37,489 nt of DNA from a virus (IMGVR_UViG_3300028805_000019:1-37489), one strand, 5' to 3'; shown: positions 1 through 37,489, counted from the stretch's first letter. Program-made: numbers and translations. Notes: generated by a model not told the origin, from the letters alone.

Positions 1-14
1 ATATCATATCTTTT

Positions 15-27
15 CCGTGAAATAGAC
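15..27 (-). promoter_or_regulatory. Conserved 13-mer GTCTATTTCACGG (wrap copy of 37377-37389)
   Basis: Same 13-mer as at 2330-2342 and 3593-3605, and a near copy at 9176-9188. Always on the minus strand upstream of structural genes. Confidence 0.5.
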
Positions 28-61
28 TTGCCGCCGAATTTGTTATTTAGGCCGATTTGAG

Positions 62-93
62 GGCCTTGAAGGCTTCCGGGGTATAATTTATCG
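62..93. repeat. 32-bp intergenic repeat (second copy at 9235-9266)
   Basis: ggccttgaaggcttccggggtataatttatcg versus ggccttgaagggcttttgggtataatttatcg. Contains the near-palindrome GCCTT-G-AAGGC. Confidence 0.7.
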
Positions 94-131
94 GGAAAAG
101 GTTTGAGGGCCGCAGAATCGAAAAGTATCAC

Positions 132-679: not shown

Positions 680-710
680 CAAATATACAAACAATAATTG
701 AATATCCAAA
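680..710 (-). promoter_or_regulatory. Bacteroidota sigma-A type promoter (TTTG-N19-TATATTTG)
   Basis: Minus strand: TTTG at 710-707, a 19-nt spacer, TATATTTG at 687-680. The region 647-720 is homologous to 28358-28440. Confidence 0.7.
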
Positions 711-2329: not shown

Positions 2330-2342
2330 CCGTGAAATAGAC
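2330..2342 (-). promoter_or_regulatory. Conserved 13-mer GTCTATTTCACGG upstream of the capsid gene
   Basis: Lies 28 nt upstream of the ATG at 2302. Confidence 0.5.
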
Positions 2343-2366
2343 TTGATTAAGCGAGTGTTAAAAAAC

Positions 2367-3592: not shown

Positions 3593-3605
3593 CCGTGAAA
3601 TAGAC
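3593..3605 (-). promoter_or_regulatory. Conserved 13-mer GTCTATTTCACGG upstream of the protease/scaffold gene
   Basis: Exact copy, 12 nt upstream of the ATG at 3581. Confidence 0.5.
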
Positions 3606-3641
3606 AAAGACCCCTTTTTGTTAAAACGCCCCGTTTTTGCC

Positions 3642-3660: not shown

Positions 3661-5578
3661 GCACCTTAACGCGGTGGGCGGTATTGGCTATTTCAAGGTC
3701 GCTATAAACGAGGAATACGCGCTGATTTTGGTACAATCGTTCTTCCTCCCTTTGCCCGGTCACGTTTCTTACTTGGGCCACATAGGGGGAGAAGGCCGGG
3801 GCGGGCACGGCTGCGCTGGAGGAATCATTCCCTACCTTGACTGAGTTCATTTGCTTCACCTGTGCGTACCCGGCTGCGAGGACGGCGGCTGCGTTCATCG
3901 GGGCGAGGACTGCCTTAACCGAGAGGGGCAGTTCGGCCGCAGACCAGGTGGAGGTGAAGGCGGATACCGCTCCATTGATGGTAGAAAGGATGGCGCTCGC
4001 AATCTTGAACCCCTTTGCCTTCTTCGCGGCGGCTTCGTCCGCATCGGCATCGGCTTCGTAGATGTCGGCAATCGCCCCGGACAAATCCGATAGGGTGGAG
4101 GTGTAGCCCATAAACGAGGCGAGTCGTTCCTTTTGGATGCGCTGCCGCTCCGCTTCCGCTTTCCGCTCAATTTCAATCGCGGCCCATTGCGCTTCCTCAT
4201 ACTCACCAAGCAGGGCGGTCACATCTTCCGTGATGCTCTGGAACTCGGTTTCGATGTCTTTGGTGATTTCGTCCGTCCAGAGTTTGTAGTTGGATTCCCT
4301 GCTCTTGCGCTCCTTCTCGAAATCCGCCCAAGTTTTAAGGGTTTTCTTTGCTGCCTTCTCGGAGGTCTCTGACGCCGTGTTGACTTGTTTTGATAATTCG
4401 CTGACCGCGCTGCTCTCCTGCTGCGTGATGGCCCGCTGCCGTTGCGCCCGCTCCCTGTCAAGGTTGTTGAGTTTGACCTTTGCCGCCACTAACTTTTCAT
4501 TCGTGGCCGCATCGTTCTGCGTGAGGGCCGCCCGTTGCTCCTGCAAATCCAAATCCCGCTGGGCGAGTTCGTATTGCTTGTTGAACAATTCTTCCGACAG
4601 GCGTTGCGCTTCCTCGGCAGCCTTCTTTCGCTCTGCCGCCGTTTTGTTGGTTCTGTCTGCCGCATCCGCTTGCAGTTTAGCAATATCGGCCTGTACCCGC
4701 GATTCATAGACCTGCATTTCGCGCTGGTCAAGAATAAGCTGCTGCTCGGCGGCGGTAAGGGCTTGCATCGCATCGGCGGCATCCCCTTTCACAAGGCCCA
4801 GCCACCGGGCCGCCTTGCCCGCGCCCTCCACAATCTTGACCAGCCACCCCGCCATCGTTTGCAGGGCGTTAGTGGTTGCATTAAGGATGGGCTGAAACAC
4901 GGCGAGGGCCTTCTGCATCGCCATCGTGTTCTGTTCGGAGGATTTCAGCCCCTCCATTACCTTATTCAGCACATTAGCCAGCAGACCGAGGATTGCGATG
5001 GCGGGCGTTGCGGACAGGGCCTTTAGGCCCCCGGTCACCGCAGTAAGCGGGGAAATGATACCAGCCGCACTTCCTGCCGTTGCCTTAAATGCCCCGGACA
5101 AACCCTCAATCGCGCTCTTGTAGTTACCCACGTTGCGCTGGTAGTTGCCCTGCATTTCGTCAAGGGCTTTCAGCTTGGAGTTGACCGCATCAATCTGCCG
5201 AGCCTTGTTCTTAAAAGCCTCCGTCCCTTCGACGGTGCTGGTGTCAATCGCCCGAAGTTCCTCCTTATAGATAGCCATCGTGCGGACAAGGCCGTTATAC
5301 GATTGGTCTTGTCCCTTCGCGGCAGCGGCTACCTGCTCCATCGAAGTGGCCGTCCCGTGCATCGCATTACGCAGGGCGGCCTGGTTTTCCTCCAGCTCTT
5401 TGAGGGCTTGCTTATACTCATCCGTGCCGATTTTTAGGCCCTCAATCTTGACCTTATTCCCGTCAATGACTTCGGTATAACCCTCAATCTGCTTCTTTAG
5501 TTCCCGGATATTGTCTTTGAGGTCGGAAATGGAATCCGCGCCCTCGACGGCGAACCTCAAAATCTGTACATCTTCCAT
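3644..5578 (-). CDS. Tape measure-like protein, 644 aa
   Basis: Long coiled-coil sequence with two hydrophobic G/A-rich segments (AGIISPLTAVTGGLKALSATPAIAILGLLANVL and ASAILSTINGAVSAF...), as in tape measure proteins. Confidence 0.65.
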   Translation of the reverse strand: MEDVQILRFAVEGADSISDLKDNIRELKKQIEGYTEVIDGNKVKIEGLKIGTDEYKQALKELEENQAALRNAMHGTATSMEQVAAAAKGQDQSYNGLVRTMAIYKEELRAIDTSTVEGTEAFKNKARQIDAVNSKLKALDEMQGNYQRNVGNYKSAIEGLSGAFKATAGSAAGIISPLTAVTGGLKALSATPAIAILGLLANVLNKVMEGLKSSEQNTMAMQKALAVFQPILNATTNALQTMAGWLVKIVEGAGKAARWLGLVKGDAADAMQALTAAEQQLILDQREMQVYESRVQADIAKLQADAADRTNKTAAERKKAAEEAQRLSEELFNKQYELAQRDLDLQEQRAALTQNDAATNEKLVAAKVKLNNLDRERAQRQRAITQQESSAVSELSKQVNTASETSEKAAKKTLKTWADFEKERKSRESNYKLWTDEITKDIETEFQSITEDVTALLGEYEEAQWAAIEIERKAEAERQRIQKERLASFMGYTSTLSDLSGAIADIYEADADADEAAAKKAKGFKIASAILSTINGAVSAFTSTWSAAELPLSVKAVLAPMNAAAVLAAGYAQVKQMNSVKVGNDSSSAAVPAPAFSPYVAQVRNVTGQREEERLYQNQRVFLVYSDLEIANTAHRVKVRETEF

Positions 5579-8202
5579 TAGTATTGATTCTTGTAGTTAG
5601 CAATGTCACGAACCTGTACGAACTCGCACTCCGCAGGGTCGAAGGTGGTCAGCGAGTAGTTGGAGATTTTATTGAGCATCCAAAGGCTTCCCCGATACCA
5701 GTAGAACTTCCGCAATGCTTCCGGGCCGGGGCGGTCAATCCACGCCTTGCAGGTCATCACCTTCCCGTGAACGTTCAGCCTGTCCCGGATATACTGCTGC
5801 CACGCCTGTTCATAGATGGTATAACCCGCCGCGTATCGGATGCCCGTAATATCCACCTCCCGCGGGAATCCGAAGTCCAGTAGCAACTCCGGGTCTTGCC
5901 CCCGGTGGGTGTACCTTGTGAATTGGGGAATATCCAACCCGTACTCGTTGAAGGCCGCAATCCAGCACGGCCCGCCGTTCACGGCATCCATCACCGGGAG
6001 GTCATCGGACAATCCGAAGTGCGGGTAGTTCAAAGAGTAGTTGAAGAACAGAAGCACATCTGCCCCGTCTATCCCCTTGTTCTCGCCGTCCCGGAACTCG
6101 GCCCGGCTCATAAGGTCATACCCCGGATAAGTGGTGTTCAGCGGGTCAAGGCTCGCCCCGGCGGGAAGGACAATATCGGTGTCCAGATTCTCGCTTCCGT
6201 TCCATAGGGTATAAGTCCCGCCGTCAATGAACGGGGACGGATAGAAGTCGTTATTATCCAAGATGGAGTACCAATACTTGCCCCGGTCTTGCACCGCTGC
6301 GCAGGATTTCAGCACCAATCCCGCAAGAAGGTCTTTGACTTCCGCGTCGAAATCATAGCCCGTGTCCACTCGCTGGATGCCGTACTGCACCCCCTCGGTA
6401 TTGAGGTATTCTTCCTCGAATCTCCCCCCGACACTCTCCGTCTTGAACTCGTACCATTTGGAATCGAAGGCCACGGGATTGATAACAACAGAATCGGCAT
6501 CTATCCTGTCCGTCAAGTCCTCGGTTTCATTCACGAAGAAGGATTTGCGTTTGAGGATGGTGACTTGCTTGGTAGCACTATCCGCAAGGATATACAACCC
6601 GAAGGACTTACACAGGGCAAGCAGGTATTCTGCCGGAGTGCCGGAGGTCGAAAGGAGCATCCGTTTGGTGATATACGCGCCGCTCCGCAGGTTTTCGGTC
6701 GAAGTGCTGGTGGCGGTACAACTGCCCTCCGTTGCCGCCCAAGCATCGGGGTTGTAGGCATTCGCGGAATCATACCACAGGATAGTCCCGGAGCCGGTTC
6801 CGCCCGCGAACGAATAGACACCGCCACCCAAGAGAATATAGGCGCGGTATGCCGTGACCTCAATGTCAATCCGCGCAATGTTCACCCCGGTTATCTCGCA
6901 CTCCAAATCCCGCTGCCGGACATAGTAGCCATTATCCAGCGAGTAGGAATGGTCAACATCTGCAGAAGCGAAGCCCGCATTCCCTTTCGGGATGAACCCA
7001 AAGGCGCTTGCAAGGGTTTCGGCATCGGCCACATTCGCGCTCTTGTAGTACGCCTTGACCGGGCCAGCGGTTACCTGTGTGTTATCGCTTGCATATCCTA
7101 CCGCTTGCACGAACAGGACTTGCTGCTCAATCCCGGCTGGGACATACGACTGCGCCCGCTTCTCATCCCAAGACCGCAGGGGCGTTCTCGGCGATGCCCC
7201 CGGCACAGAATAACGCAGATTGCACCTGACCCGGGCAGTCACTTCCGCTCCGCTGGGGACATTCGCCAGCGCAAAACGCCCGATAACGTTCCCGGAGGAA
7301 TACTGCACGAAAGTCCCCGTGATGGATTCCGTCATTTGCTTATAAGTTCCCAAACTCGGCAGCAAAGGCCGGGTTATCCAAGTGTCAAGATACGGCACAT
7401 CGGCGAGGTCGGAGAGGTCAACATTCCACCCGCCGTTATTATTCCCGTCCGCGATGGCATCCAGCAGTTTCCGAACCGAGAGGACGGGCCGCTGGAGGTA
7501 GGAGCGGAGGTCTTTCGCCGCCCATTCGTCCACATCATCGGGATAATTAATCAAGCATACCCCGTTGTTGGTGGTATAGGTCTTGCCGTCTTTGGTTATT
7601 GAACTCTGCAGCCCAAAAACACTTGGTTCTGCCACGGCCTTATCAGTCGTGAAGTTCTCCGGCAATCCGTTATAGCATGGGGCGAAGTTGATGATGTCCC
7701 ACTTCTCCGGCTTGCTGGTATCTCCATCCAATCGCGCCCACGCATCCGCGACGGCTTCCTTGTTGATAACGAAGTCCAAGTCCACGCCGTAGTCCAAGTC
7801 CGCAAGGGTCATCTTCTCCCCGGACGGGGTGAAAGACAGATTGTAGATGAAATCCCCAAGCCCCCCGAACAGGGACACGGAGTAGGTGTCTTTCGTGACG
7901 GAGTTGAGTTTCAAATACCCGGCGTAGATTATCTCCCCGGAATCGGCATAGAGGGCGAAGGAGGTTCTTTGTGATGCGTTGAACTGCGCCCCCGTGCCGC
8001 CGCCCCCGGCCAGCCGGTCGGCCCGGAAGGAGTGCCCGAATATCCTGTCATTCGCCGGGGTCGCGGGGAGGTCTATGTCCTGCGTCCAAGAGTTCTTTAA
8101 GACCGCCGGATTGGTGAGGTCAGTAATGGCGTAGTTCAAGAGGACGAACCCATCCTCCGTCATATCCGCCTTCTGACCTCCGATGTAAAGTGTCAATCTC
8201 AT
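5578..8202 (-). CDS. Large tail/baseplate structural protein, 874 aa
   Basis: Long well-formed ORF joined to its neighbours by TAATG and ATGA overlaps, adjacent to the tape measure-like gene. No enzymatic motif seen. Confidence 0.55.
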   Translation of the reverse strand: MRLTLYIGGQKADMTEDGFVLLNYAITDLTNPAVLKNSWTQDIDLPATPANDRIFGHSFRADRLAGGGGTGAQFNASQRTSFALYADSGEIIYAGYLKLNSVTKDTYSVSLFGGLGDFIYNLSFTPSGEKMTLADLDYGVDLDFVINKEAVADAWARLDGDTSKPEKWDIINFAPCYNGLPENFTTDKAVAEPSVFGLQSSITKDGKTYTTNNGVCLINYPDDVDEWAAKDLRSYLQRPVLSVRKLLDAIADGNNNGGWNVDLSDLADVPYLDTWITRPLLPSLGTYKQMTESITGTFVQYSSGNVIGRFALANVPSGAEVTARVRCNLRYSVPGASPRTPLRSWDEKRAQSYVPAGIEQQVLFVQAVGYASDNTQVTAGPVKAYYKSANVADAETLASAFGFIPKGNAGFASADVDHSYSLDNGYYVRQRDLECEITGVNIARIDIEVTAYRAYILLGGGVYSFAGGTGSGTILWYDSANAYNPDAWAATEGSCTATSTSTENLRSGAYITKRMLLSTSGTPAEYLLALCKSFGLYILADSATKQVTILKRKSFFVNETEDLTDRIDADSVVINPVAFDSKWYEFKTESVGGRFEEEYLNTEGVQYGIQRVDTGYDFDAEVKDLLAGLVLKSCAAVQDRGKYWYSILDNNDFYPSPFIDGGTYTLWNGSENLDTDIVLPAGASLDPLNTTYPGYDLMSRAEFRDGENKGIDGADVLLFFNYSLNYPHFGLSDDLPVMDAVNGGPCWIAAFNEYGLDIPQFTRYTHRGQDPELLLDFGFPREVDITGIRYAAGYTIYEQAWQQYIRDRLNVHGKVMTCKAWIDRPGPEALRKFYWYRGSLWMLNKISNYSLTTFDPAECEFVQVRDIANYKNQY

Positions 8203-9161
8203 CGCCTGTACTGCTCCCGGGCCAGCCGGGCATTGAAAGTGTAGTTGGTGAACCTCTCCCTGTACTCGGTGTCCGTGTTTTCAAGGTTGACCGGGATAAA
8301 GACCCCTTCCTCCAAGTCGTAGAGGTAGACGAAAGGAGAGTTGAGCAAGTGGTGCATCTTGTCCCCGCGGGTCAGCCAATCCGTTATCAGTTCCCACGAA
8401 GGGGACACCTCGACGGCGTAGTCCCGCGCTCCCCGGTTGGAGGGGTTGCTGTTGTCGTAGTCGTACTTCGTGGTGTGGCGGGTGAGGTTATCGGTTCTCT
8501 TGCCGTGGGCCAGCACCAGCGAATCCCAGCCCCCGTAGGCGTTGATATAATAGACCGCATACCTGGCGCACGTTTTCTTGACTTGATAAGTGATAGTCCC
8601 CACTTGAACGGACACCAGATTGTCAAAGGGGGCGAGGTCTATGATAGCAGCCCCGCCGATTGCGCTGGATGCTTCCGTGGAAAAATCCTCGTTGAAATCG
8701 TTATTGAAGTCTGCCGTCCTTTGGATAGGTCTTACCACCTGTGCGCTTGTTCCGTCCCCGAAGTAGAGGGTAGCCGTTATCTGCGTCCCCGTGATTGCGG
8801 AAATGATGAGCGGCTGGCGGGAATCAAGCGCCCCCAGCGGAACGGACAGGGGCATCGTGTCCGGGTCAAAACTGCAATCGTAAGACCAGTCGTTGTAGAA
8901 GATAATAGATTCCACCGAAGACCCCCCGGCGTAAATGTCGAACTGCTGCGCCATTGCGAAGGGCGTGAACCCCTGCTCCGGCGGCAGGAAGTGCGCGAGG
9001 TAGTCAGCCGCGATGTCGTTTATCTTGACCTTGATGGTGTCCTCATCGGGACGAAGGTAGGCCCGCCCGGAGAAGATGACCGCCCCGTCCACTTGCACCT
9101 CATAGTCCCGGGCCGCGTTCGCTCCAAGGTCAATGTAGTAGTCCTTCCAAATCGGTTGCAT
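8199..9161 (-). CDS. Tail structural protein (distal-tail-like?), 320 aa
   Basis: ATGA overlap with the 874-aa gene. Preceded by the 13-mer motif. Function assigned from position only. Confidence 0.45.
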   Translation of the reverse strand: MQPIWKDYYIDLGANAARDYEVQVDGAVIFSGRAYLRPDEDTIKVKINDIAADYLAHFLPPEQGFTPFAMAQQFDIYAGGSSVESIIFYNDWSYDCSFDPDTMPLSVPLGALDSRQPLIISAITGTQITATLYFGDGTSAQVVRPIQRTADFNNDFNEDFSTEASSAIGGAAIIDLAPFDNLVSVQVGTITYQVKKTCARYAVYYINAYGGWDSLVLAHGKRTDNLTRHTTKYDYDNSNPSNRGARDYAVEVSPSWELITDWLTRGDKMHHLLNSPFVYLYDLEEGVFIPVNLENTDTEYRERFTNYTFNARLAREQYRR

Positions 9162-9175
9162 ATCGTGTGTCTTTT

Positions 9176-9188
9176 CCGTGAAATAGAA
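9176..9188 (-). promoter_or_regulatory. Conserved motif TTCTATTTCACGG upstream of the 8199-9161 gene
   Basis: Near copy of the 13-mer, 15 nt upstream of the ATG at 9161. Confidence 0.5.
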
Positions 9189-9191
9189 AAC

Positions 9192-9218
9192 GAGCGCAAA
9201 TCGTTTCCGAATGCGCTC
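9192..9218 (-). terminator. Hairpin GAGCGCA-N13-TGCGCTC followed by GTTTTCTATTT
   Basis: Perfect 7-bp stem read on the minus strand with a T-rich tail. Lies between motif 2 and the 13-mer. Confidence 0.5.
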
Positions 9219-14504: not shown

Positions 14505-14843
14505 CTACTTTTCGATTTTAGCGGCCTTTGGCTTGCGGGCGGTGGTTTTCTTGTCTTTGGGTTTGGTGTCGCTTATAGCGGGTTTCTCGGCCTCCTGCGG
14601 GACTGCTGCTGCTTCTTCTCGGGCTTCTTTTTCGGTGAAGTAGAGTTTCCCGGCCTTCTGCAAGATGGAGAGGACACAGGACGCGCAGCCGGGGTTGAAC
14701 CTGGGCAGTTGCTCGGTTTCGTGTACGATGTCGTAGATGCCTTGCAGGGCGCTTCGTCCGGGGTTGCGTGCCCAGCCGGAGCGGACGGCGGTACGGAGGT
14801 TATCTTCGTACTGGCTTAAGTAGTTGAAATCGCGGTCAGTCAT
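14505..14843 (-). CDS. Hypothetical protein with a lysine-rich tail, 112 aa
   Basis: Clean ORF, ATGA-coupled to the next gene. No recognisable motif. Confidence 0.55.
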   Translation of the reverse strand: MTDRDFNYLSQYEDNLRTAVRSGWARNPGRSALQGIYDIVHETEQLPRFNPGCASCVLSILQKAGKLYFTEKEAREEAAAVPQEAEKPAISDTKPKDKKTTARKPKAAKIEK

Positions 14844-15094
14844 ATATCAAGTATCTTTTTCAGTCGTTCCCAAGTCTTTTGAAGGGCGGGGAGGTCTTTG
14901 AGCAAGTCCCGGTAGTGGTGGATGGTGGAGTGGTTCTTCCCCAGCAAGTCCCCGGTCTCCGTTTCGGTCATTCCCATCGTCAGCAGGGCGTTGGCCAATA
15001 AGGCCCGGGCTTCCACGTTCCCCCGCTTGCGCGTGTCTTTGAGCGGGTCGAACCCGGTCAGGTTCTCAACGATAACGGAGAGGTAGTCTACCAT
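14840..15094 (-). CDS. DnaA domain IV-like HTH protein, 84 aa
   Basis: RKRGNVEARALLANALL...TGDLLGKNHSTIHHY resembles the DnaA C-terminal DNA-binding domain. Confidence 0.5.
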   Translation of the reverse strand: MVDYLSVIVENLTGFDPLKDTRKRGNVEARALLANALLTMGMTETETGDLLGKNHSTIHHYRDLLKDLPALQKTWERLKKILDI

Positions 15095-15408
15095 TTGGGT
15101 GTCAGTTTGTCAAAAATCCACAACGAGCCTTCACGAATAAATAGCAGCGCGGCGGCGATTGTTACGGAGAGCAACGAGAGCGCGGCGGATTCAGCAACGG
15201 CGAGCAGCGAGAAATCCACGCAAATAGAGTAGATAAGGCATACCCACCACGTCATACATTGGCCGCAGTCAAATGGCTTCAGCGGCTTTAGTTCCCGGAC
15301 TTTGAGTTTCCGGGCGAGGGCATCCCGCCACGACTGCGTGAAGCCGGACACATCCACGATATAAACGACAATCGCGGCCACGATAGGAAGTTGTGCGTAG
15401 ATGGTCAT
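15088..15408 (-). CDS. Membrane protein, 106 aa
   Basis: Three hydrophobic segments (LPIVAAIVVYIV, WWVCLIYSICVDFSLLAV, LSLLSVTIAAALLF). Confidence 0.55.
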   Translation of the reverse strand: MTIYAQLPIVAAIVVYIVDVSGFTQSWRDALARKLKVRELKPLKPFDCGQCMTWWVCLIYSICVDFSLLAVAESAALSLLSVTIAAALLFIREGSLWIFDKLTPKW

Positions 15409-15686
15409 ATCTCATAGATATAGTCCCACTTGTGATAGCCCCCGATAAGGGTCAGCCGCTTGATCTCCTTCTCGGGGATGAAGTAATCATTTTCGGCCTT
15501 CCCGAAGGCGTAGTTCAGAGTACCGAGTTTGTCCCGGTTCGTGGGTTCGATACAACCGGCATCCTGCTTTCGGGAAAGGACATAATCAATCAAGTCCCCG
15601 GTGGTGAATCCTGGTTTAAGGATTGCCCGGAGTTCGCACGTTCCGTCCCCAAACTCCCGGATATGTTCAACTTCAAATGGTCTCAT
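15405..15686 (-). CDS. Hypothetical protein, 93 aa
   Basis: ATGA-coupled ORF with no recognisable motif. Confidence 0.55.
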   Translation of the reverse strand: MRPFEVEHIREFGDGTCELRAILKPGFTTGDLIDYVLSRKQDAGCIEPTNRDKLGTLNYAFGKAENDYFIPEKEIKRLTLIGGYHKWDYIYEI

Positions 15687-15979
15687 AATCGTTCCTTGAT
15701 TTCCTTTGCAGTCATTTCGTAGTATTCAGTAAGTATCTTCTCCTTGATTGGGTCAAGTACCCGCTTGACACTCCCGTAGGACATCCCCAATCTTTTCCCC
15801 AAATCCCGCAGACTTCCGCAGTCGGCGTACAGGAGAATAAGGGTGCGCTCCACTTGGTCAAGCCGATTCAGCACGATTTCCTTTATCCGGCGTACCTTGT
15901 CCGGCTCGGCGTTGAAGATAGAATCGTCTATCTCGAAGTCCTTGCGGATTTCCTTGTAGTCCCGTAGTACATCATTCAT
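15683..15979 (-). CDS. Sigma-70 region 4-like HTH protein, 98 aa (C-terminal half of a split sigma factor)
   Basis: LDQVERTLILLYADCGSLRDLGKRLGMSYGSVKRVL matches the ECF region 4 pattern. Overlaps the upstream ORF as ATGAATGA. Confidence 0.55.
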   Translation of the reverse strand: MNDVLRDYKEIRKDFEIDDSIFNAEPDKVRRIKEIVLNRLDQVERTLILLYADCGSLRDLGKRLGMSYGSVKRVLDPIKEKILTEYYEMTAKEIKERL

Positions 15980-16277
15980 CGGCGAAGTCTTTGTCCGTTA
16001 TGTCGTCTGTCCGGGATGAGAATCGCCGGATGACGGCGTGGTAGGGAGAGCGCGGGGAGCGCAACTGATTGACGATAACCCGTGCCAAGAAGAAGCGGAT
16101 TTGGCCCGATTCCCAAAGGTCTATGATTTTGTCCTCATCGTATTCCAGCAGGATAAGGTAGACCATTTGGCAGAGGTCTTTGAGATTCTGGGATAGGCGG
16201 GTATGGGCGATGTTGCAGACCATCTGCTCCACCACCCTGTCCCGAGCGAGCGCCGCGCCTATCTCCATCTTCGTCAT
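15972..16277 (-). CDS. Sigma-70 region 2-like protein, 101 aa (N-terminal half of a split sigma factor)
   Basis: Start moved to the ATG at 16277. KDLCQMVYLILLEY...IRFFLARVIVNQLRS matches the ECF region 2 pattern. GTCTATTT lies just upstream at 16286-16293. Confidence 0.5.
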   Translation of the reverse strand: MTKMEIGAALARDRVVEQMVCNIAHTRLSQNLKDLCQMVYLILLEYDEDKIIDLWESGQIRFFLARVIVNQLRSPRSPYHAVIRRFSSRTDDITDKDFADE

Positions 16278-16284
16278 TTCGCTA

Positions 16285-16746
16285 TTAAATAGACTTTCCC
16301 TGCATCTTGTCAACTTCCTGCTGGTAATGCTTGATAAGGAGTTGCAGTTCAAACGCGCTCCACTTCTTGGTCATCCGTCCCCTTGCTAATAGCATATCCA
16401 CGCGGTCTTTCCCGATTTTGGCTTCGAGGTTGCGCTGGTAGGCGATAATGTGGTCAGCGGAAAAGCGGTTGCAAAACCTGCACTCCCCGTGTGCGTTTTC
16501 CTCATCGAACCGGGTGGCTTGGTGCGTCCGGGAAATGAAGTGCCCGCAGTCCATTTGCTCAAAGGGTTTGATTTGCCCGCAGGAGATACAACGGAAGTAC
16601 TGATAGTTATACGCAGCCGAATCCCGGAGCCGGATATACAGGGAGAAAACCTTATCCAATTTCCGCACAAGGGCGGCGGTGCTGGGTTTCCTTTCATTGA
16701 TACCCGACTTCGGGGTTTTCGGTTTGCGCTTGATGTAGTAGGGCAT
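16285..16746 (-). CDS. ninG: NinG/Rap-like recombination endonuclease, 153 aa
   Basis: LDKVFSLYIRLRD...CISCG...DCGHFISR...RFDEENAHGECRFCN matches the lambda NinG family pattern. Confidence 0.75.
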   Translation of the reverse strand: MPYYIKRKPKTPKSGINERKPSTAALVRKLDKVFSLYIRLRDSAAYNYQYFRCISCGQIKPFEQMDCGHFISRTHQATRFDEENAHGECRFCNRFSADHIIAYQRNLEAKIGKDRVDMLLARGRMTKKWSAFELQLLIKHYQQEVDKMQGKSI

Positions 16747-23516: not shown

Positions 23517-23900
23517 ATGTCACACGAAGAAAGATTAGAAATTTTGACTTCCATCTACCGCAAGGCCCTGGGGCTGGGGGTAGTTAAGACAGTCAAGGAG
23601 TTTGCAGAGGCTCTTGAAATGAACGTGTCCGGCATATCGTCGGCGCTGAATGGCTCGGAGAAACATCTAACAAAATCCCTTATCACAAAGGCCCAGCGGT
23701 GGGAAGAACGCACCTTTCCCGGCGGGGAACTGCCCAAGCAGGAGAAGCGGCCCGATGTCGTTATCCCCGCCGAAACTCTGGACTTGTATAACAATATGGC
23801 CCGGGCCATCGCAGATCTCTCCGATATTCTCCGCCGGGCTGGATTCTCGGTCGGGGTCGGGTCAAACTTGGAAAAAAACTTCTATCGTAATGGAAAGTGA
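23517..23900 (+). CDS. CI-like repressor (XRE-type HTH), 127 aa
   Basis: One of only two plus-strand genes, divergent from the early operon. TVKEFAEALEMNVSGISSALNGSE is an XRE-type HTH. Confidence 0.65.
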   Translation: MSHEERLEILTSIYRKALGLGVVKTVKEFAEALEMNVSGISSALNGSEKHLTKSLITKAQRWEERTFPGGELPKQEKRPDVVIPAETLDLYNNMARAIADLSDILRRAGFSVGVGSNLEKNFYRNGK

Positions 23901-24217: not shown

Positions 24218-24300
24218 ACTATAACCAATCTAACCCATAGACACAATGAGAAAAGAAATTCCCCTGCTTCTATCCATAAATAGACCTTGACCCGATTTTG

Positions 24301-25536
24301 TTACGGCCAGCGGAAGGATTCTATCACCTTCCTGTTCGCGGCGTTCATCAAGTCGAAATCTCTTTCCGCATAAATATCCGTCATCCGATAGTCCCCAACG
24401 TGGCACAGGCACTCATCCACAAGGGCCTTCTCTACACCGAGTTTCCGGGCAATCGTGGCCCACGTTTTCCGGGCCGAATAGAAGGAGATATGTTCCGTGT
24501 CAGGGAGGTGGTTTTCCGTGGCCCATTCTTTCAACCCGGCGTTCACCCGTGCGGTGCAGCCGTTACAGGTGGAGTACCGATGCAGGGCCGGGAGCCACCA
24601 GCCCGCCGGGCCAGCTTGTAACCTCCCAATAATCCCGGACACTTCGCCGGGAATATCCACCTTCATAATCGCCCCGTCTTGCCGCCTGTGTTCCGTTTTG
24701 CGGCGGTTATAGACCCAGCGGGATAGTTGGGGTTTGGCGGCGTACATATCCGCGAGATTCGCGCCCATTGTGGCAAAGGAAAGGAGGAAGATGTCGCGGG
24801 CGAAGTCAGGCCCGGAATCAATGACCATCTGCAATTCCTCGGCGGTCAGCGCCCGCGCCCCCTCGGACGGCGGGACGGGCTTGGGGATGGCATCAAACGG
24901 ACTGCGCGGAATCAGTATCTTGTCATCATCATTGTACCTTTGCTTCGCGGCGTTGAACAAGTGGGCGAGTTTGGCCAGATGCCGGGAACTCGCACCGCCC
25001 TTCCTCGGTTTCCCGGTATCAATCCATTCCCCCGTCCGGGGGTTGTACTGCATCTTGGTTTCCGAGTCGTTCTTCTCCACGAAGTCCAGCAGCAGGGCTT
25101 TCGTGATGTCGTTTATATCTATCGTCCGTCTCCCAAGAAACCGCTCGAAAGCCCGGAGTGCCATATCGTAGGCCCGCCGGGTGCTGGGCGATTTTCGAGA
25201 CAGGTACGAATCGCTCCACGCGAAGAAGTCCAGCGCGAAGTTTTCCTCCCGCAGTTTGGTATGTATGTGCGCCACCACCCTGTCCACATCCCAGCCCTCA
25301 ATAACGAAAGGGGAGAGGTCGGACACCGCCGCACGCATCTCCTTTATCAGTTCGTTTGCCCGGTTGAGTATGTCCGGGGACTTGATATGCAATGAGCGGG
25401 ACAGGTCTGTCTGCCGGGCTACAAGTGTTGTGGCCAGCCGCCGGGTCTTTCCCCTGAACGTGACGCGAATCTTGACGGGGTATGTGCCGTCCTTCCGGCG
25501 GTTGCCGGGGATTACGATGGGTTTGAAGGTTATCAT
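24301..25536 (-). CDS. int: Tyrosine integrase with an N-terminal arm-binding domain (Bacteroidetes phage type), 411 aa
   Basis: MITFKPIVIPGNRRKDGTYPVKIRVTF is an arm-binding N-terminus. C-terminal ARKTWATIA...LCHVGDYRMTDIYAE holds the catalytic R/H/Y region. Start moved to the ATG at 25536. Confidence 0.85.
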   Translation of the reverse strand: MITFKPIVIPGNRRKDGTYPVKIRVTFRGKTRRLATTLVARQTDLSRSLHIKSPDILNRANELIKEMRAAVSDLSPFVIEGWDVDRVVAHIHTKLREENFALDFFAWSDSYLSRKSPSTRRAYDMALRAFERFLGRRTIDINDITKALLLDFVEKNDSETKMQYNPRTGEWIDTGKPRKGGASSRHLAKLAHLFNAAKQRYNDDDKILIPRSPFDAIPKPVPPSEGARALTAEELQMVIDSGPDFARDIFLLSFATMGANLADMYAAKPQLSRWVYNRRKTEHRRQDGAIMKVDIPGEVSGIIGRLQAGPAGWWLPALHRYSTCNGCTARVNAGLKEWATENHLPDTEHISFYSARKTWATIARKLGVEKALVDECLCHVGDYRMTDIYAERDFDLMNAANRKVIESFRWP

Positions 25537-28398: not shown

Positions 28399-28429
28399 CA
28401 AATATACAAATGATTTTTGAATATGCAAA
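28399..28429 (-). promoter_or_regulatory. Bacteroidota sigma-A type promoter (TTTG-N19-TATATTTG)
   Basis: Same geometry and about 80 bp of homology with the promoter/leader at 647-720. Confidence 0.7.
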
Positions 28430-37089: not shown

Positions 37090-37369
37090 ATTCTATCGTT
37101 TTCTCAAATTCCGTCCTGTCCGGGGTGTAATCACCCTTGATTGCCAACCCCTCGGATATGATTTCTTCTCCGGCCATCAGCCTGTAAGTGTACTCCCCGT
37201 CCGGGAGGTCGAAGGCCATCTGCCCGGAAAAATAGAGCGGGCCTTGCGTCAGTTCGACGGCCTCCGAATAGACCTGCAACCCGACATTGTTCACCAGCAC
37301 GAAGCGGTCCGCCGCCGGGGCATCCCACGGCTTCGGAATGTACAGGGTATCGGAATCAAGGTATATCAT
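37070..37369 (-). CDS. Hypothetical protein, 99 aa, first gene of the portal operon
   Basis: The ATG at 37369 lies 7 nt downstream of the conserved 13-mer. Overlaps the portal start by 20 nt. Confidence 0.5.
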   Translation of the reverse strand: MIYLDSDTLYIPKPWDAPAADRFVLVNNVGLQVYSEAVELTQGPLYFSGQMAFDLPDGEYTYRLMAGEEIISEGLAIKGDYTPDRTEFEKTIEYEQYGS

Positions 37370-37489
37370 ATCTTTTCCGTGAAATAGACTTGCCGCCGAA
37401 TTTGTTATTTAGGCCGATTTGAGGGCCTTGAAGGCTTCCGGGGTATAATTTATCGGGAAAAGGTTTGAGGGCCGCAGAATCGAAAAGTA
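37363..37489. repeat. Terminal direct repeat identical to 1-127
   Basis: Read directly. Confidence 0.95.
37377..37389 (-). promoter_or_regulatory. Conserved 13-mer GTCTATTTCACGG upstream of the 99-aa/portal operon
   Basis: Exact copy, the same as 15-27 through the terminal repeat. Confidence 0.5.

What the first reader, a model, noticed from the sequence alone, without database searches (positions are those of the whole stretch)
15683..16277. Phage sigma factor split into separate region-2 and region-4 polypeptides
Two ORFs overlap as ATGAATGA at 15972-15979. The upstream 101-aa product carries an ECF region-2-like sequence (KDLCQMVYLILLEYDEDKI...IRFFLARVIVNQLRS). The downstream 98-aa product carries a region-4-like HTH (LDQVERTLILLYADCGSLRDLGKRLGMSYGSVKRVL). 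Together they would make one small ECF-type sigma factor, but they are encoded as two coupled proteins rather than one chain. The genome has no RNA polymerase gene. It does have a strongly conserved non-host-like motif in front of the structural operons (reported separately). A two-piece sigma that redirects host RNA polymerase to late promoters is therefore a reasonable hypothesis. GTCTATTT also occurs at 16286-16293, just upstream of the region-2 ORF.
Basis: partly seen in the sequence, partly recalled or inferred. Interest (0 to 1): 0.65.

Follow-up and report, generated by a model that had tools for sequence, protein, structure and literature searches.

The report
Two-gene split sigma factor of phage
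A temperate phage of gut or rumen Bacteroidota-type bacteria encodes what looks like one small sigma factor cut into two translationally coupled proteins. This split is conserved across a very large uncultured phage family and comes with its own promoter motif, but no function has been tested.

Summary
Two minus-strand ORFs, A (16277-15972, 101 aa) and B (15979-15683, 98 aa), overlap in ATGAATGA. It is not a sequencing indel: in 38 related loci plus the window, A is always followed directly by B, with nine different junction geometries and both frame offsets. All roughly 280 close homologues are about 100 aa.

B is sigma-region-4-like (Pfam Sigma70_r4 23.5 bits against a cutoff of 24.1; hhalign E 6.7e-5; fold hits led by ECF sigma-4 domains). 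A is only weakly sigma-2-like on its own (hhalign P 0.0011, no Pfam hit, no PDB fold hit). However, rare natural A-B fusions exist, and one of them passes NCBIfam's sigma-70/ECF cutoff along its full length. Concatenated A+B pairs align end to end with an ECF profile (P 4e-8).

A bipartite motif, T(A/G)AC-N17-TATTT, sits just upstream of gene A in 28 of 39 loci. In the window it also precedes virion genes. It differs from the Bacteroidota-type promoters at early genes.

Best reading: a two-subunit, autoregulated late sigma factor acting on host RNA polymerase. That is a new variant of a known kind (SigO-RsoA, T4 gp55/gp33). Function is inferred, not shown.

The parts
15972..16277 (-). Gene A: 101-aa divergent sigma region-2-like half. 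The stop TGA is at 15972-15974.
   Evidence: ORF and translation. hhalign against an ECF profile aligns A 14-73 with RpoE 31-83, P 0.0011, above all 60 block permutations and both reversed controls. Twelve of 146 A-only relatives hit TIGR02937 and 13 of 146 hit Pfam Sigma70_r2. A sigma-2-only HMM ranks the A ORFs within the top 224 of 4,399 ORFs.
15683..15979 (-). Gene B: 98-aa sigma region-4-like helix-turn-helix half, with an acidic N-terminal segment.
   Evidence: Pfam Sigma70_r4 E 4e-5, 23.5 bits against a cutoff of 24.1. TIGR02937 E 4.5e-5. hhalign aligns B 29-89 with RpoE 128-188, E 6.7e-5. The AF2 model has pLDDT 91.5. Foldseek hits are led by ECF sigma-4 domains such as 3vep, 3hug and 2h27. 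A sigma-4-only HMM ranks B ORFs 1-23 of 4,399.
15972..15979 (-). ATGAATGA start/stop overlap, the translational-coupling junction.
   Evidence: In the 38 related loci plus the window the junction is always an overlap or a 1-nt gap: ATGA in 15, 8 nt in 7, 11 nt in 6, 17 nt in 4, and others. Both relative frames occur.
16287..16312 (-). Bipartite promoter-like motif TGACA-N13-GTCTATTT, 9 nt upstream of the ATG of A and inside the 3' end of the NinG-like gene.
   Evidence: The same T[AG]AC-N17-TATTT architecture lies directly upstream of gene A in 28 of 39 loci, with an unconserved spacer.
3598..3623 (-). Motif TAACA-N13-GTCTATTT(CACGG) upstream of the capsid/protease-like gene (3581-2367).
   Evidence: Relatives carry a bipartite motif at the same position.
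2335..2360 (-). Motif TAACA-N13-GTCTATTT(CACGG) upstream of the 303-aa virion structural gene (2302-1391).
37382..37407 (-). Motif TAACA-N13-GTCTATTT(CACGG) upstream of the 99-aa gene and the portal gene. It is the same site as 20-45 because of the 127-bp terminal repeat.
9181..9206 (-). Weaker motif copy, AAACG-N13-TTCTATTT(CACGGAAAAGA), upstream of the 320-aa gene (9161-8199).
   Evidence: It has 3 mismatches in the core but shares the downstream CACGGAAAAGA with the other structural-gene sites.
24278..24303 (-). Motif TAACA-N13-GTCTATTT that overlaps the integrase stop codon and points antisense toward the plus-strand repressor-like ORF 23517-23900.

Best explanation
[quoted passage not shown] They are made as two polypeptides in roughly equal amounts through start/stop-overlap translational coupling.

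Proposed mechanism, which is inferred and not shown:
1. The pair is first transcribed by read-through from the early operon (replication genes, then NinG).
2. A docks on the beta-prime clamp helices of the host (probably Bacteroidota) core RNA polymerase through its region-2.2-like helix (invariant D34/Q37). A also reads the TATTT '-10-like' box.
3. B docks on the beta flap and reads the T(A/G)ACA '-35-like' box.
4. The resulting holoenzyme fires the promoter directly upstream of A (positive autoregulation; this transcript continues into HNH and terminase). It also fires the copies in front of the capsid, structural and portal genes.

The break lies in the sigma-2/sigma-4 linker. Rare relatives carry the same two halves fused in one chain.
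For: Conserved split:
- All 163 A-homologues and all 118 B-homologues found are about 90-140 aa; none is fused.
- A and B are adjacent in 38 related loci plus the window, with 9 junction geometries and both frame offsets.

Functional unity:
- Natural fusions P0253, P0274, P0297 and P0359 (190-226 aa) exist.
- P0274 and P0253 were each recovered from contigs of more than one sequencing run.
- The fusions are scattered among split relatives.

Sigma identity:
- P0274 scores 43.2 bits on TIGR02937 (cutoff 42.9) in one stretch, 15-184 against model positions 6-164 of 165. P0253 scores 35.8 bits. The artificially joined window pair scores 31.3 bits (E 1.4e-7) against 23.1 for B alone.
- hhalign of 40 concatenated or fused pairs against an ECF profile gives a global P of 4.1e-8 (probability 93%). 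The alignment is colinear, query 2-214 against template 1-200.
- A alone aligns to regions 2.1-2.4 with P 0.0011 and invariant-on-invariant matches. B aligns to sigma-4 with E 6.7e-5.
- Domain-specific HMMs rank A with sigma-2 and B with sigma-4, and not the reverse.
- B's fold hits are ECF sigma-4 domains.

Promoter class:
- T[AG]AC-N17-TATTT occurs 35 times on the gene strand and 2 times on the other strand in 423 kb.
- It lies directly upstream of A in 28 of 39 loci.
- In the window it also precedes structural genes.
- The extended '-10' box is identical at the sigma gene and the capsid gene within a phage but differs between lineages.
- It is distinct from the canonical TTTG-N-TAnnTTTG boxes found upstream of the anti-restriction gene. 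TAnnTTTG -7 boxes alone also occur in the immunity region.

Context:
- The pair sits between NinG and HNH/terminase, where late activators are usually found.
- No RNAP family was detected.
Against: - A alone hits no curated sigma model.
- A profile of the A family finds no sigma factor in PDB sequences.
- A's confident AF2 model (pLDDT 86) has no significant PDB fold match. The best hit has E=2.
- The hhalign probability for A alone is only 20%.
- A-family members hit an archaellum coiled-coil model (ArlX/FlaX) as often as they hit sigma models.
- B's best PDB sequence match is the TyrR HTH, not a sigma factor.
- The '-10' half in relatives (TATATTT) resembles the Bacteroidota primary-sigma -7 box TAnnTTTG (my own knowledge of that consensus).
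- The two fused-type phage lineages examined (four loci) lack the motif upstream of their gene.
- No binding or transcription data exist.
Confidence: 0.6

Rival explanations
1. A and B form a two-component late transcription activator rather than a sigma factor. B binds the T(A/G)ACA box as a class-II-type activator, with A as a co-factor. The host primary sigma, still on the polymerase, reads the TATTT box.
For: - In relatives the downstream box is TATATTT(C), one base from the Bacteroidota -7 consensus TAnnTTTG (the consensus is from my own knowledge).
- B's HTH also matches the TyrR/Fis-type HTH_50 family.
- A's sigma-2 similarity is weak.
- The genome position is the same as that of late activators such as Q, RinA and ArpU.
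Against: - Fused relatives match a full-length sigma-70/ECF model, with the A part on region 2.
- A's invariant residues fall on the core-binding D..Q motif and on the W/N positions of region 2.3-2.4.
- The window's own box, GTCTATTT, departs from TAnnTTTG, while true TTTG-N-TAnnTTTG boxes occur at early genes.
- The 17-nt fixed spacing from T[AG]AC to TATTT is sigma-like.
Confidence: 0.2
2. B is an ordinary HTH regulator (repressor, activator or packaging-site binder). A is an unrelated small helical partner protein. The sigma resemblance is superficial.
For: - Window A has no significant curated hit.
- The Foldseek PDB search for A is negative.
- Small HTH domains cross-match many families.
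Against: - The full-length match is colinear, with P 4e-8.
- A fused relative passes the TIGR02937 cutoff.
- Adjacency is strictly conserved and fusions recur.
Confidence: 0.08
3. A single fused sigma factor is the real product, made by programmed ribosomal frameshifting at the overlap.
For: The two frames overlap by 8 nt, and fused single-chain relatives exist.
Against: - There is no slippery heptamer at the junction.
- Junction sequences are not conserved, and relatives need +1 in some loci and -1 in others (22 against 17 loci).
- B always has its own ATG at the expected position.
Confidence: 0.03
4. A sequencing or assembly indel has artificially broken an ordinary ECF sigma gene.
For: A single-base change at 15972-15979 would join the frames.
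Against: - The split is present in every one of 38 independent related loci, and in hundreds of protein clusters from different studies.
- Near-identical contigs L009 and L010 have the identical junction.
Confidence: 0.01

Closest known systems
SigO-RsoA (YvrI-YvrHa) two-subunit sigma factor of Bacillus subtilis
   Same: A sigma-70-family factor whose promoter-recognition functions are divided between two separately encoded polypeptides. [quoted passage not shown]
   Different: SigO-RsoA is cellular and stress-responsive. Here the pair belongs to a phage, and the halves are about 100 aa each, cut in the linker. No Pfam or NCBIfam hit named SigO or RsoA. Direct sequence comparison was not done, and the primary papers were not available. 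PMC10141391 tabulates a different domain split for SigO-RsoA (sigma-2 and sigma-3; sigma-4).
Phage T4 late transcription factors gp55 and gp33
   Same: A phage replaces host sigma function with two small proteins. One is sigma-2-like and binds the clamp helices. The other binds the beta flap in place of sigma-4 (PMC7824862).
   Different: T4 gp33 lacks promoter DNA recognition, T4 late promoters have only a -10 box, and activation needs the sliding clamp (my own knowledge). Here B keeps a sigma-4-type HTH, and the promoters carry a fixed-distance upstream box. No PHROG hit to gp55 or gp33 families was found.
Single-chain phage or prophage ECF-like late sigma factors and 'positive control factors' (for example PBSX Xpf; the RinA/ArpU-type late activators)
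   Same: A small sigma-like regulator encoded just upstream of the packaging and structural genes of a temperate phage. The fused relatives (190-226 aa) have exactly this architecture, and P0253 weakly hits the 'positive control sigma-like factor' model (E 0.026). Xpf is listed as a sigma-2 plus sigma-4 group IV factor in PMC10141391.
   Different: The window's form is split into two genes. No RinA or ArpU model appeared in the NCBIfam or Pfam scans.
Canonical ECF (group 4) sigma factors such as E. coli RpoE and B. subtilis SigW
   Same: Colinear sigma-2 and sigma-4 similarity. An AAC-type upstream promoter box and a promoter in front of its own gene (autoregulation), as is typical of ECFs (PMC7826278).
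   Different: Two chains rather than one. The similarity is below the curated cutoffs. No recognisable anti-sigma gene was found. The distance from T[AG]AC to the downstream box is shorter or different from the classical AAC-N16-CGT layout (my own knowledge).

Membership tests
Sigma-70 family, ECF/group 4 (TIGR02937; Pfam Sigma70_r2 plus Sigma70_r4) | A sigma-4 domain (regions 4.1-4.2, HTH) that recognises the -35 box. | tested here: met
   B scores 23.5 bits on PF04545 (cutoff 24.1, so marginally below). hhalign aligns B 29-89 with RpoE 128-188, E 6.7e-5, while reversed controls score 10.4 against 34.4. Foldseek top hits are ECF sigma-4 domains, although with E of at least 0.2. A sigma-4 HMM ranks B ORFs 1-23 of 4,399.
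Sigma-70 family, ECF/group 4 (TIGR02937; Pfam Sigma70_r2 plus Sigma70_r4) | A sigma-2 domain (regions 2.1-2.4) with the core-binding D..QE helix and the aromatic/N motif of regions 2.3-2.4. | tested here: inconclusive
   Window A has no Pfam or NCBIfam sigma hit. hhalign gives P 0.0011 and probability 20%, with D34 on D48, Q37 on Q51, F63 on W73 and N70 on N80. Thirteen of 146 relatives hit PF04542 and 12 of 146 hit TIGR02937. The Foldseek PDB search was negative.
Sigma-70 family, ECF/group 4 (TIGR02937; Pfam Sigma70_r2 plus Sigma70_r4) | A whole-protein score above the curated cutoff of the family model. | tested here: not met
   The joined window A+B scores 31.3 bits against a cutoff of 42.9. 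The naturally fused relative P0274 does pass, with 43.2 bits.
Sigma-70 family, ECF/group 4 (TIGR02937; Pfam Sigma70_r2 plus Sigma70_r4) | Sigma-2 and sigma-4 in one polypeptide joined by a linker. | tested here: not met
   There are two ORFs in the window and in all 38 related loci. Single-chain forms occur only in rare relatives.
Sigma-70 family, ECF/group 4 (TIGR02937; Pfam Sigma70_r2 plus Sigma70_r4) | Binds core RNA polymerase and confers promoter-specific initiation. | not testable with these tools
   This needs biochemistry.
Sigma-70 family, ECF/group 4 (TIGR02937; Pfam Sigma70_r2 plus Sigma70_r4) | A cognate bipartite promoter, usually also in front of its own gene (autoregulation). | tested here: met
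   At sequence level only. T[AG]AC-N17-TATTT lies upstream of gene A in 28 of 39 loci and shows strand bias of 35 to 2. In the window the same motif precedes structural genes.
Two-subunit sigma factor (SigO-RsoA type) | Sigma functions divided between two separately translated, co-encoded polypeptides. | tested here: met
Two-subunit sigma factor (SigO-RsoA type) | Sequence homology to SigO or RsoA themselves. | not tested
   No SigO or RsoA sequences were at hand. No named hit appeared in the Pfam or NCBIfam scans.
Two-subunit sigma factor (SigO-RsoA type) | Both subunits are required together for transcription from the target promoters. | not testable with these tools
   This needs genetics or in vitro transcription.
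T4-type gp55/gp33 late system | Homology to gp55 and gp33. The flap-binding partner has no DNA-binding function, and the promoters have a -10 box only. | tested here: not met
   The PHROG hits of B were to sigma and regulator families, and A had none. B keeps a sigma-4-type HTH. The promoters have a fixed upstream box.
RinA/ArpU/Xpf-type phage late activators | A match to the family models (TIGR01636, TIGR01637, PRK06930). | tested here: not met
   No RinA or ArpU hit for A, B or the fusions. The only related hit is a weak PRK06930 match for the fused P0253 (E 0.026).

The most novel reading that the evidence does not exclude
This locus represents a very large, uncharacterised family of natural two-subunit sigma factors in Bacteroidota-type temperate phages. 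The family has at least 1,460 clusters at 50% identity and is absent from 50,697 GenBank phage records. In this reading, sigma-2 and sigma-4 assemble on host core polymerase without a covalent linker, autoregulate, and drive a private late-promoter class. Repeated independent fusion or fission events would show that the sigma-2/sigma-4 linker is dispensable in nature.
Probability: 0.5. Interest if true: 0.7.

Novelty: new variant of a known kind. Interest (0 to 1): 0.6.

Why it matters
Natural sigma factors that work as two separate chains are very rare. SigO-RsoA is the bacterial example, and T4 gp55/gp33 is a functional analogue.

A family this large would be useful in several ways:
- The split form is dominant and fusions are occasional, so it offers a natural experiment on what the sigma-2/sigma-4 linker is for.
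- It would explain how many uncultured gut and rumen Bacteroidota phages time their late genes.
- It could supply orthogonal split-sigma and promoter pairs for engineering Bacteroides, whose promoters differ from the E. coli type.
- It would give an annotation to more than a thousand 'hypothetical protein' clusters.

Tried and rejected
- DNA and protein searches against GenBank phages found nothing.
- PDB sequence searches with A-family profiles returned only noise.
- The Foldseek PDB search with the A model gave no significant hit. The best was 9n9q_C at E=2. That entry is probably the dCas12f-sigmaE-RNAP complex, but I did not verify what chain C is.
- The BFVD fold search found only uncharacterised 160-232-aa phage proteins.
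- hhalign of the A profile against single RpoE or FecI sequences was uninformative.
- The third large protein search, seeded with RpoE plus FecI, listed only RpoE orthologues of at least 85% identity. It was of little use for building a diverse profile. I therefore fetched ten diverse plasmid ECF genes instead.
- I looked for co-variation between B's recognition helix or A's region 2.4 and the promoter boxes. It could not be separated from phylogeny.
- The fused-type phages show no motif upstream of their gene.
- No terminators or unusual sigma-70-type sites lie around the locus.
- There are no tRNA or Rfam features in the window.
- The SigO-RsoA primary papers were not in the library.
- Rejected: indel artefact, programmed frameshift, and small terminase. 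The pair lies about 3 kb upstream of TerL, with six to seven genes in between.

Full report
**Observation**

On the minus strand, ORF A runs from ATG 16277 to TGA 15974-15972 (101 aa). ORF B runs from ATG 15979-15977 to the stop at 15683 (98 aa). They share the octamer ATGAATGA, and B is displaced by one base. GTCTATTT lies at 16287-16294, one base off the reported position. It sits inside the last codons of the upstream NinG-like gene, 9 nt before the start of A.

**Genome context**

The window is a complete circular assembly of 37,362 bp with a 127-bp terminal repeat. It is a temperate, siphovirus-like phage. Almost all of its genes are on the minus strand:
- integrase, 25578-24301
- NinG/Rap endonuclease, 16746-16285
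- HNH endonuclease and a ParB-like nuclease, 14498-13267
- large terminase, 12660-10510
- tape-measure-like, protease/capsid-like and portal genes

The A/B pair therefore sits at the end of the early/replication block, just before the packaging genes. That is the position where temperate phages usually encode their late-gene regulator.

No RNA polymerase family was detected among the large ORFs. However, an 874-aa ORF has no hit at all.

Only 6 of 53 genes have a Shine-Dalgarno-like sequence, and the leaders are A-rich. Canonical TTTG-N17-23-TAnnTTTG boxes occur upstream of the anti-restriction gene and near position 700. Divergent -7 boxes lie in the repressor/cro-like intergenic region. MAG labels of related contigs are mixed but include three Bacteroidales. 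Together these point to a Bacteroidota host from rumen or gut. Nothing similar exists among 50,697 GenBank phage records.

**The split is real and conserved**

All 163 homologues of A and all 118 homologues of B found in the 5.8-billion-protein collection are short: the 120 listed A homologues are 96-143 aa and the B homologues 62-136 aa. None is fused.

In 38 related loci from viral contigs and MAGs, plus the window, an A homologue is always followed immediately by a B homologue in another frame. The junction is ATGA in 15 loci, an 8-nt overlap in 7, 11 nt in 6, 17 nt in 4, and five other geometries in the rest. B is in the +1 frame in 22 loci and the +2 frame in 17.

This excludes a sequencing indel. 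It also argues against programmed frameshifting, because there is no conserved slippery site or direction. It indicates selection for translational coupling of two separate products.

**The two proteins are one functional unit**

A profile search of 1.84 billion cluster representatives found 1,460 relatives of A at E of 1e-3 or better. Nearly all are about 100 aa. Four of the best 150 are 190-226 aa. Their C-terminal halves are clear B homologues.

For the two fusions checked (P0274 and P0253), the same fused ORF occurs in contigs from more than one sequencing run. P0253 sits in a phage context with ERF and terminase genes. Each fusion's nearest relatives by A-domain identity are split proteins rather than other fusions. 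Fusion or fission has therefore happened several times.

**Is it a sigma factor?**

B:
- Pfam Sigma70_r4 E 4e-5, 23.5 bits, just under the 24.1 cutoff. Also Sigma70_r4_2, PHROG 'RNA polymerase sigma factor' at 4.8e-6, and TIGR02937 at 4.5e-5.
- hhalign against a profile of 15 bona fide ECF sigmas (RpoE, FecI, ten diverse plasmid ECFs and three RpoE orthologues) aligns B 29-89 with RpoE 128-188, E 6.7e-5. Reversed-sequence controls score 10.4 against 34.4.
- The AF2 model (pLDDT 91.5) retrieves mainly ECF sigma-4 domains: SigD4, SigL4 and sigmaE region 4 at rmsd 2.3 Å. The E-values are poor, at 0.2 or worse.
- One competing signal is the TyrR-type HTH (PF18024; PDB 1g2h, E 3e-4), which covers only the 32-residue HTH.

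A is much more divergent:
- No curated hit for the window protein.
- Nothing in PDB sequence searches.
- No PDB fold match, despite a confident model with pLDDT 86.

Positive evidence for A:
- The A-family profile aligns to RpoE 31-83 (regions 2.1-2.4) with P 0.0011. Reversed controls score 15, and all 60 block permutations score 24.2 or less against 27.1.
- In that alignment the family's invariant D34 and Q37 fall on D48 and Q51, the only invariant sigma-2 positions of the ECF set. F63, I67 and N70 fall on W73, I77 and N80.
- Among 146 A-only relatives, 13 hit Pfam Sigma70_r2. Twelve hit TIGR02937, with scattered hits to six further sigma models. An archaellum coiled-coil model is hit about as often.
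- A sigma-2-only HMM ranks all 40 A ORFs within the top 224 of 4,399 six-frame ORFs, while B ORFs rank 112-1490. A sigma-4-only HMM does the reverse.
- Fused relative P0274 passes NCBIfam's curated cutoff for TIGR02937 (43.2 against 42.9 bits) in a single stretch, 15-184 against model 6-164 of 165. P0253 scores 35.8 bits. The artificially joined window pair scores 31.3 bits, against 23.1 for B alone.
- Forty concatenated or fused pairs align globally and colinearly with the ECF profile, P 4.1e-8 and probability 93%.

I take the homology of the pair to a small ECF-like sigma factor as likely (about 85%). B is secure; A rests on convergent but individually modest evidence. The break falls in the sigma-2/sigma-4 linker. 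A keeps a conserved basic tail (RSxxSPFHxxxRKF), and B keeps an acidic N-terminal segment.

**Promoter evidence**

The window's GTCTATTT sites are the downstream half of a bipartite motif with fixed spacing, T(A/G)ACA-N13-GTCTATTT. Put another way, it is T[AG]AC-N17-TATTT.
- Exact copies precede the capsid/protease-like gene (3598-3623), the 303-aa structural gene (2335-2360) and the small gene before portal (37382-37407).
- A one-mismatch copy (TGACA) lies directly before gene A.
- A degenerate copy precedes the 320-aa gene (9181-9206).
- One copy overlaps the integrase stop codon (24278-24303).

Across 423 kb of related loci plus the window, the motif occurs 35 times on the gene strand and twice on the other strand. 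In 28 of 39 loci it lies just upstream of gene A's start, and the spacer sequences are unrelated.

Relatives also carry a bipartite motif before their capsid gene (TTTACA-N-TATATTTCC). The extended downstream box is identical at the sigma gene and the capsid gene within a phage but differs between lineages. It is GTCTATTT in the window clade and AAGTATATTTCC in two others.

This pattern is what an autoregulated, phage-encoded specificity factor would produce. It is distinct from the host-type boxes at early genes. It does not prove that A/B read the motif. In addition, the TATATTT variant is close to the Bacteroidota -7 box.

**Mechanism proposed (inferred)**

1. Early read-through expresses A and B in roughly equal amounts.
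2. Each half occupies its usual site on host core RNAP.
3. The holoenzyme fires the promoter in front of A (positive feedback, with transcription continuing into the packaging genes) and the internal promoters that boost virion genes.

The main rival, at about 20%, is that A/B act as an activator pair with host sigma still bound.

**Comparison with known systems**

The literature I could search describes SigO-RsoA as the bacterial case of sigma-2 and sigma-4 on separate polypeptides, and notes that phage ECFs are poorly captured by current classifications (PMC7826278). It describes T4 gp55/gp33 as a minimal sigma plus a flap-binding partner (PMC7824862). It lists Xpf as a prophage sigma-like positive control factor (PMC10141391). 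I found no paper describing this family.

I therefore rate it as a new variant of a known kind. It is a large, uncharacterised phage family in which the two-chain form is the rule.

Noticed in passing
window 1-127 and 37363-37489: There is an exact 127-bp terminal direct repeat. The window is therefore a circularly closed assembly of a 37,362-bp genome, and the motif site at 20-45 is the same site as 37382-37407.
   Followed up: yes
window 24278-24303 (minus strand), next to 23517-23900 (plus strand): One copy of the late-type bipartite motif overlaps the integrase stop codon. No ORF longer than about 60 aa follows it. A transcript from it would run antisense into the plus-strand repressor-like HTH gene, across the probable attP region. 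It may be an antisense or lysogeny-control transcript.
   Followed up: partly
window 28399-28429 and 680-710 (minus strand); 23425/23431: Two near-identical canonical Bacteroidota-type promoters (TTTG-N-TATATTTG) are present, one of them upstream of the anti-restriction-like gene. Divergent TAnnTTTG boxes lie in the repressor/cro-like intergenic region. This is a second, host-type promoter class, distinct from the late motif.
   Followed up: partly
window 5578-8202 (minus strand): The largest ORF in the genome (874 aa) lies among the structural genes and has no hit in Pfam or PHROGs. The neighbouring 320-aa ORF (8199-9161) also has none.
   Followed up: partly
L040-L043 (Logan contigs SRR29188468, SRR30832678, SRR14298101, SRR14298102): Related phages carry the two halves fused in a single 192-aa or 210-aa gene. 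These loci lack the bipartite motif directly upstream of that gene.
   Followed up: partly
L033 7877-8345, L034 3803-4223, L035 7606-7969, L036 2478-2841: Non-A ORFs 1.3-2.5 kb downstream of the A/B pair score as high as A with the sigma-2-only HMM, at 5-7 bits. This could be chance or a further sigma-like gene.
   Followed up: no
window 14840-15094 and 15088-15408 (minus strand): Downstream of B, after one further small ORF (15405-15686), lie a predicted membrane protein (106 aa) and a small HTH protein (84 aa, weak Xre-like/HTH_23 hits). Whether either modulates the sigma pair, for example as an anti-sigma, is unknown.
   Followed up: no
whole window: Only 6 of 53 genes have a Shine-Dalgarno-like sequence, and the leaders are A-rich at positions -11 to -14. 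Several late-motif promoters end 9-16 nt before the start codon, which implies very short leaders.
   Followed up: partly
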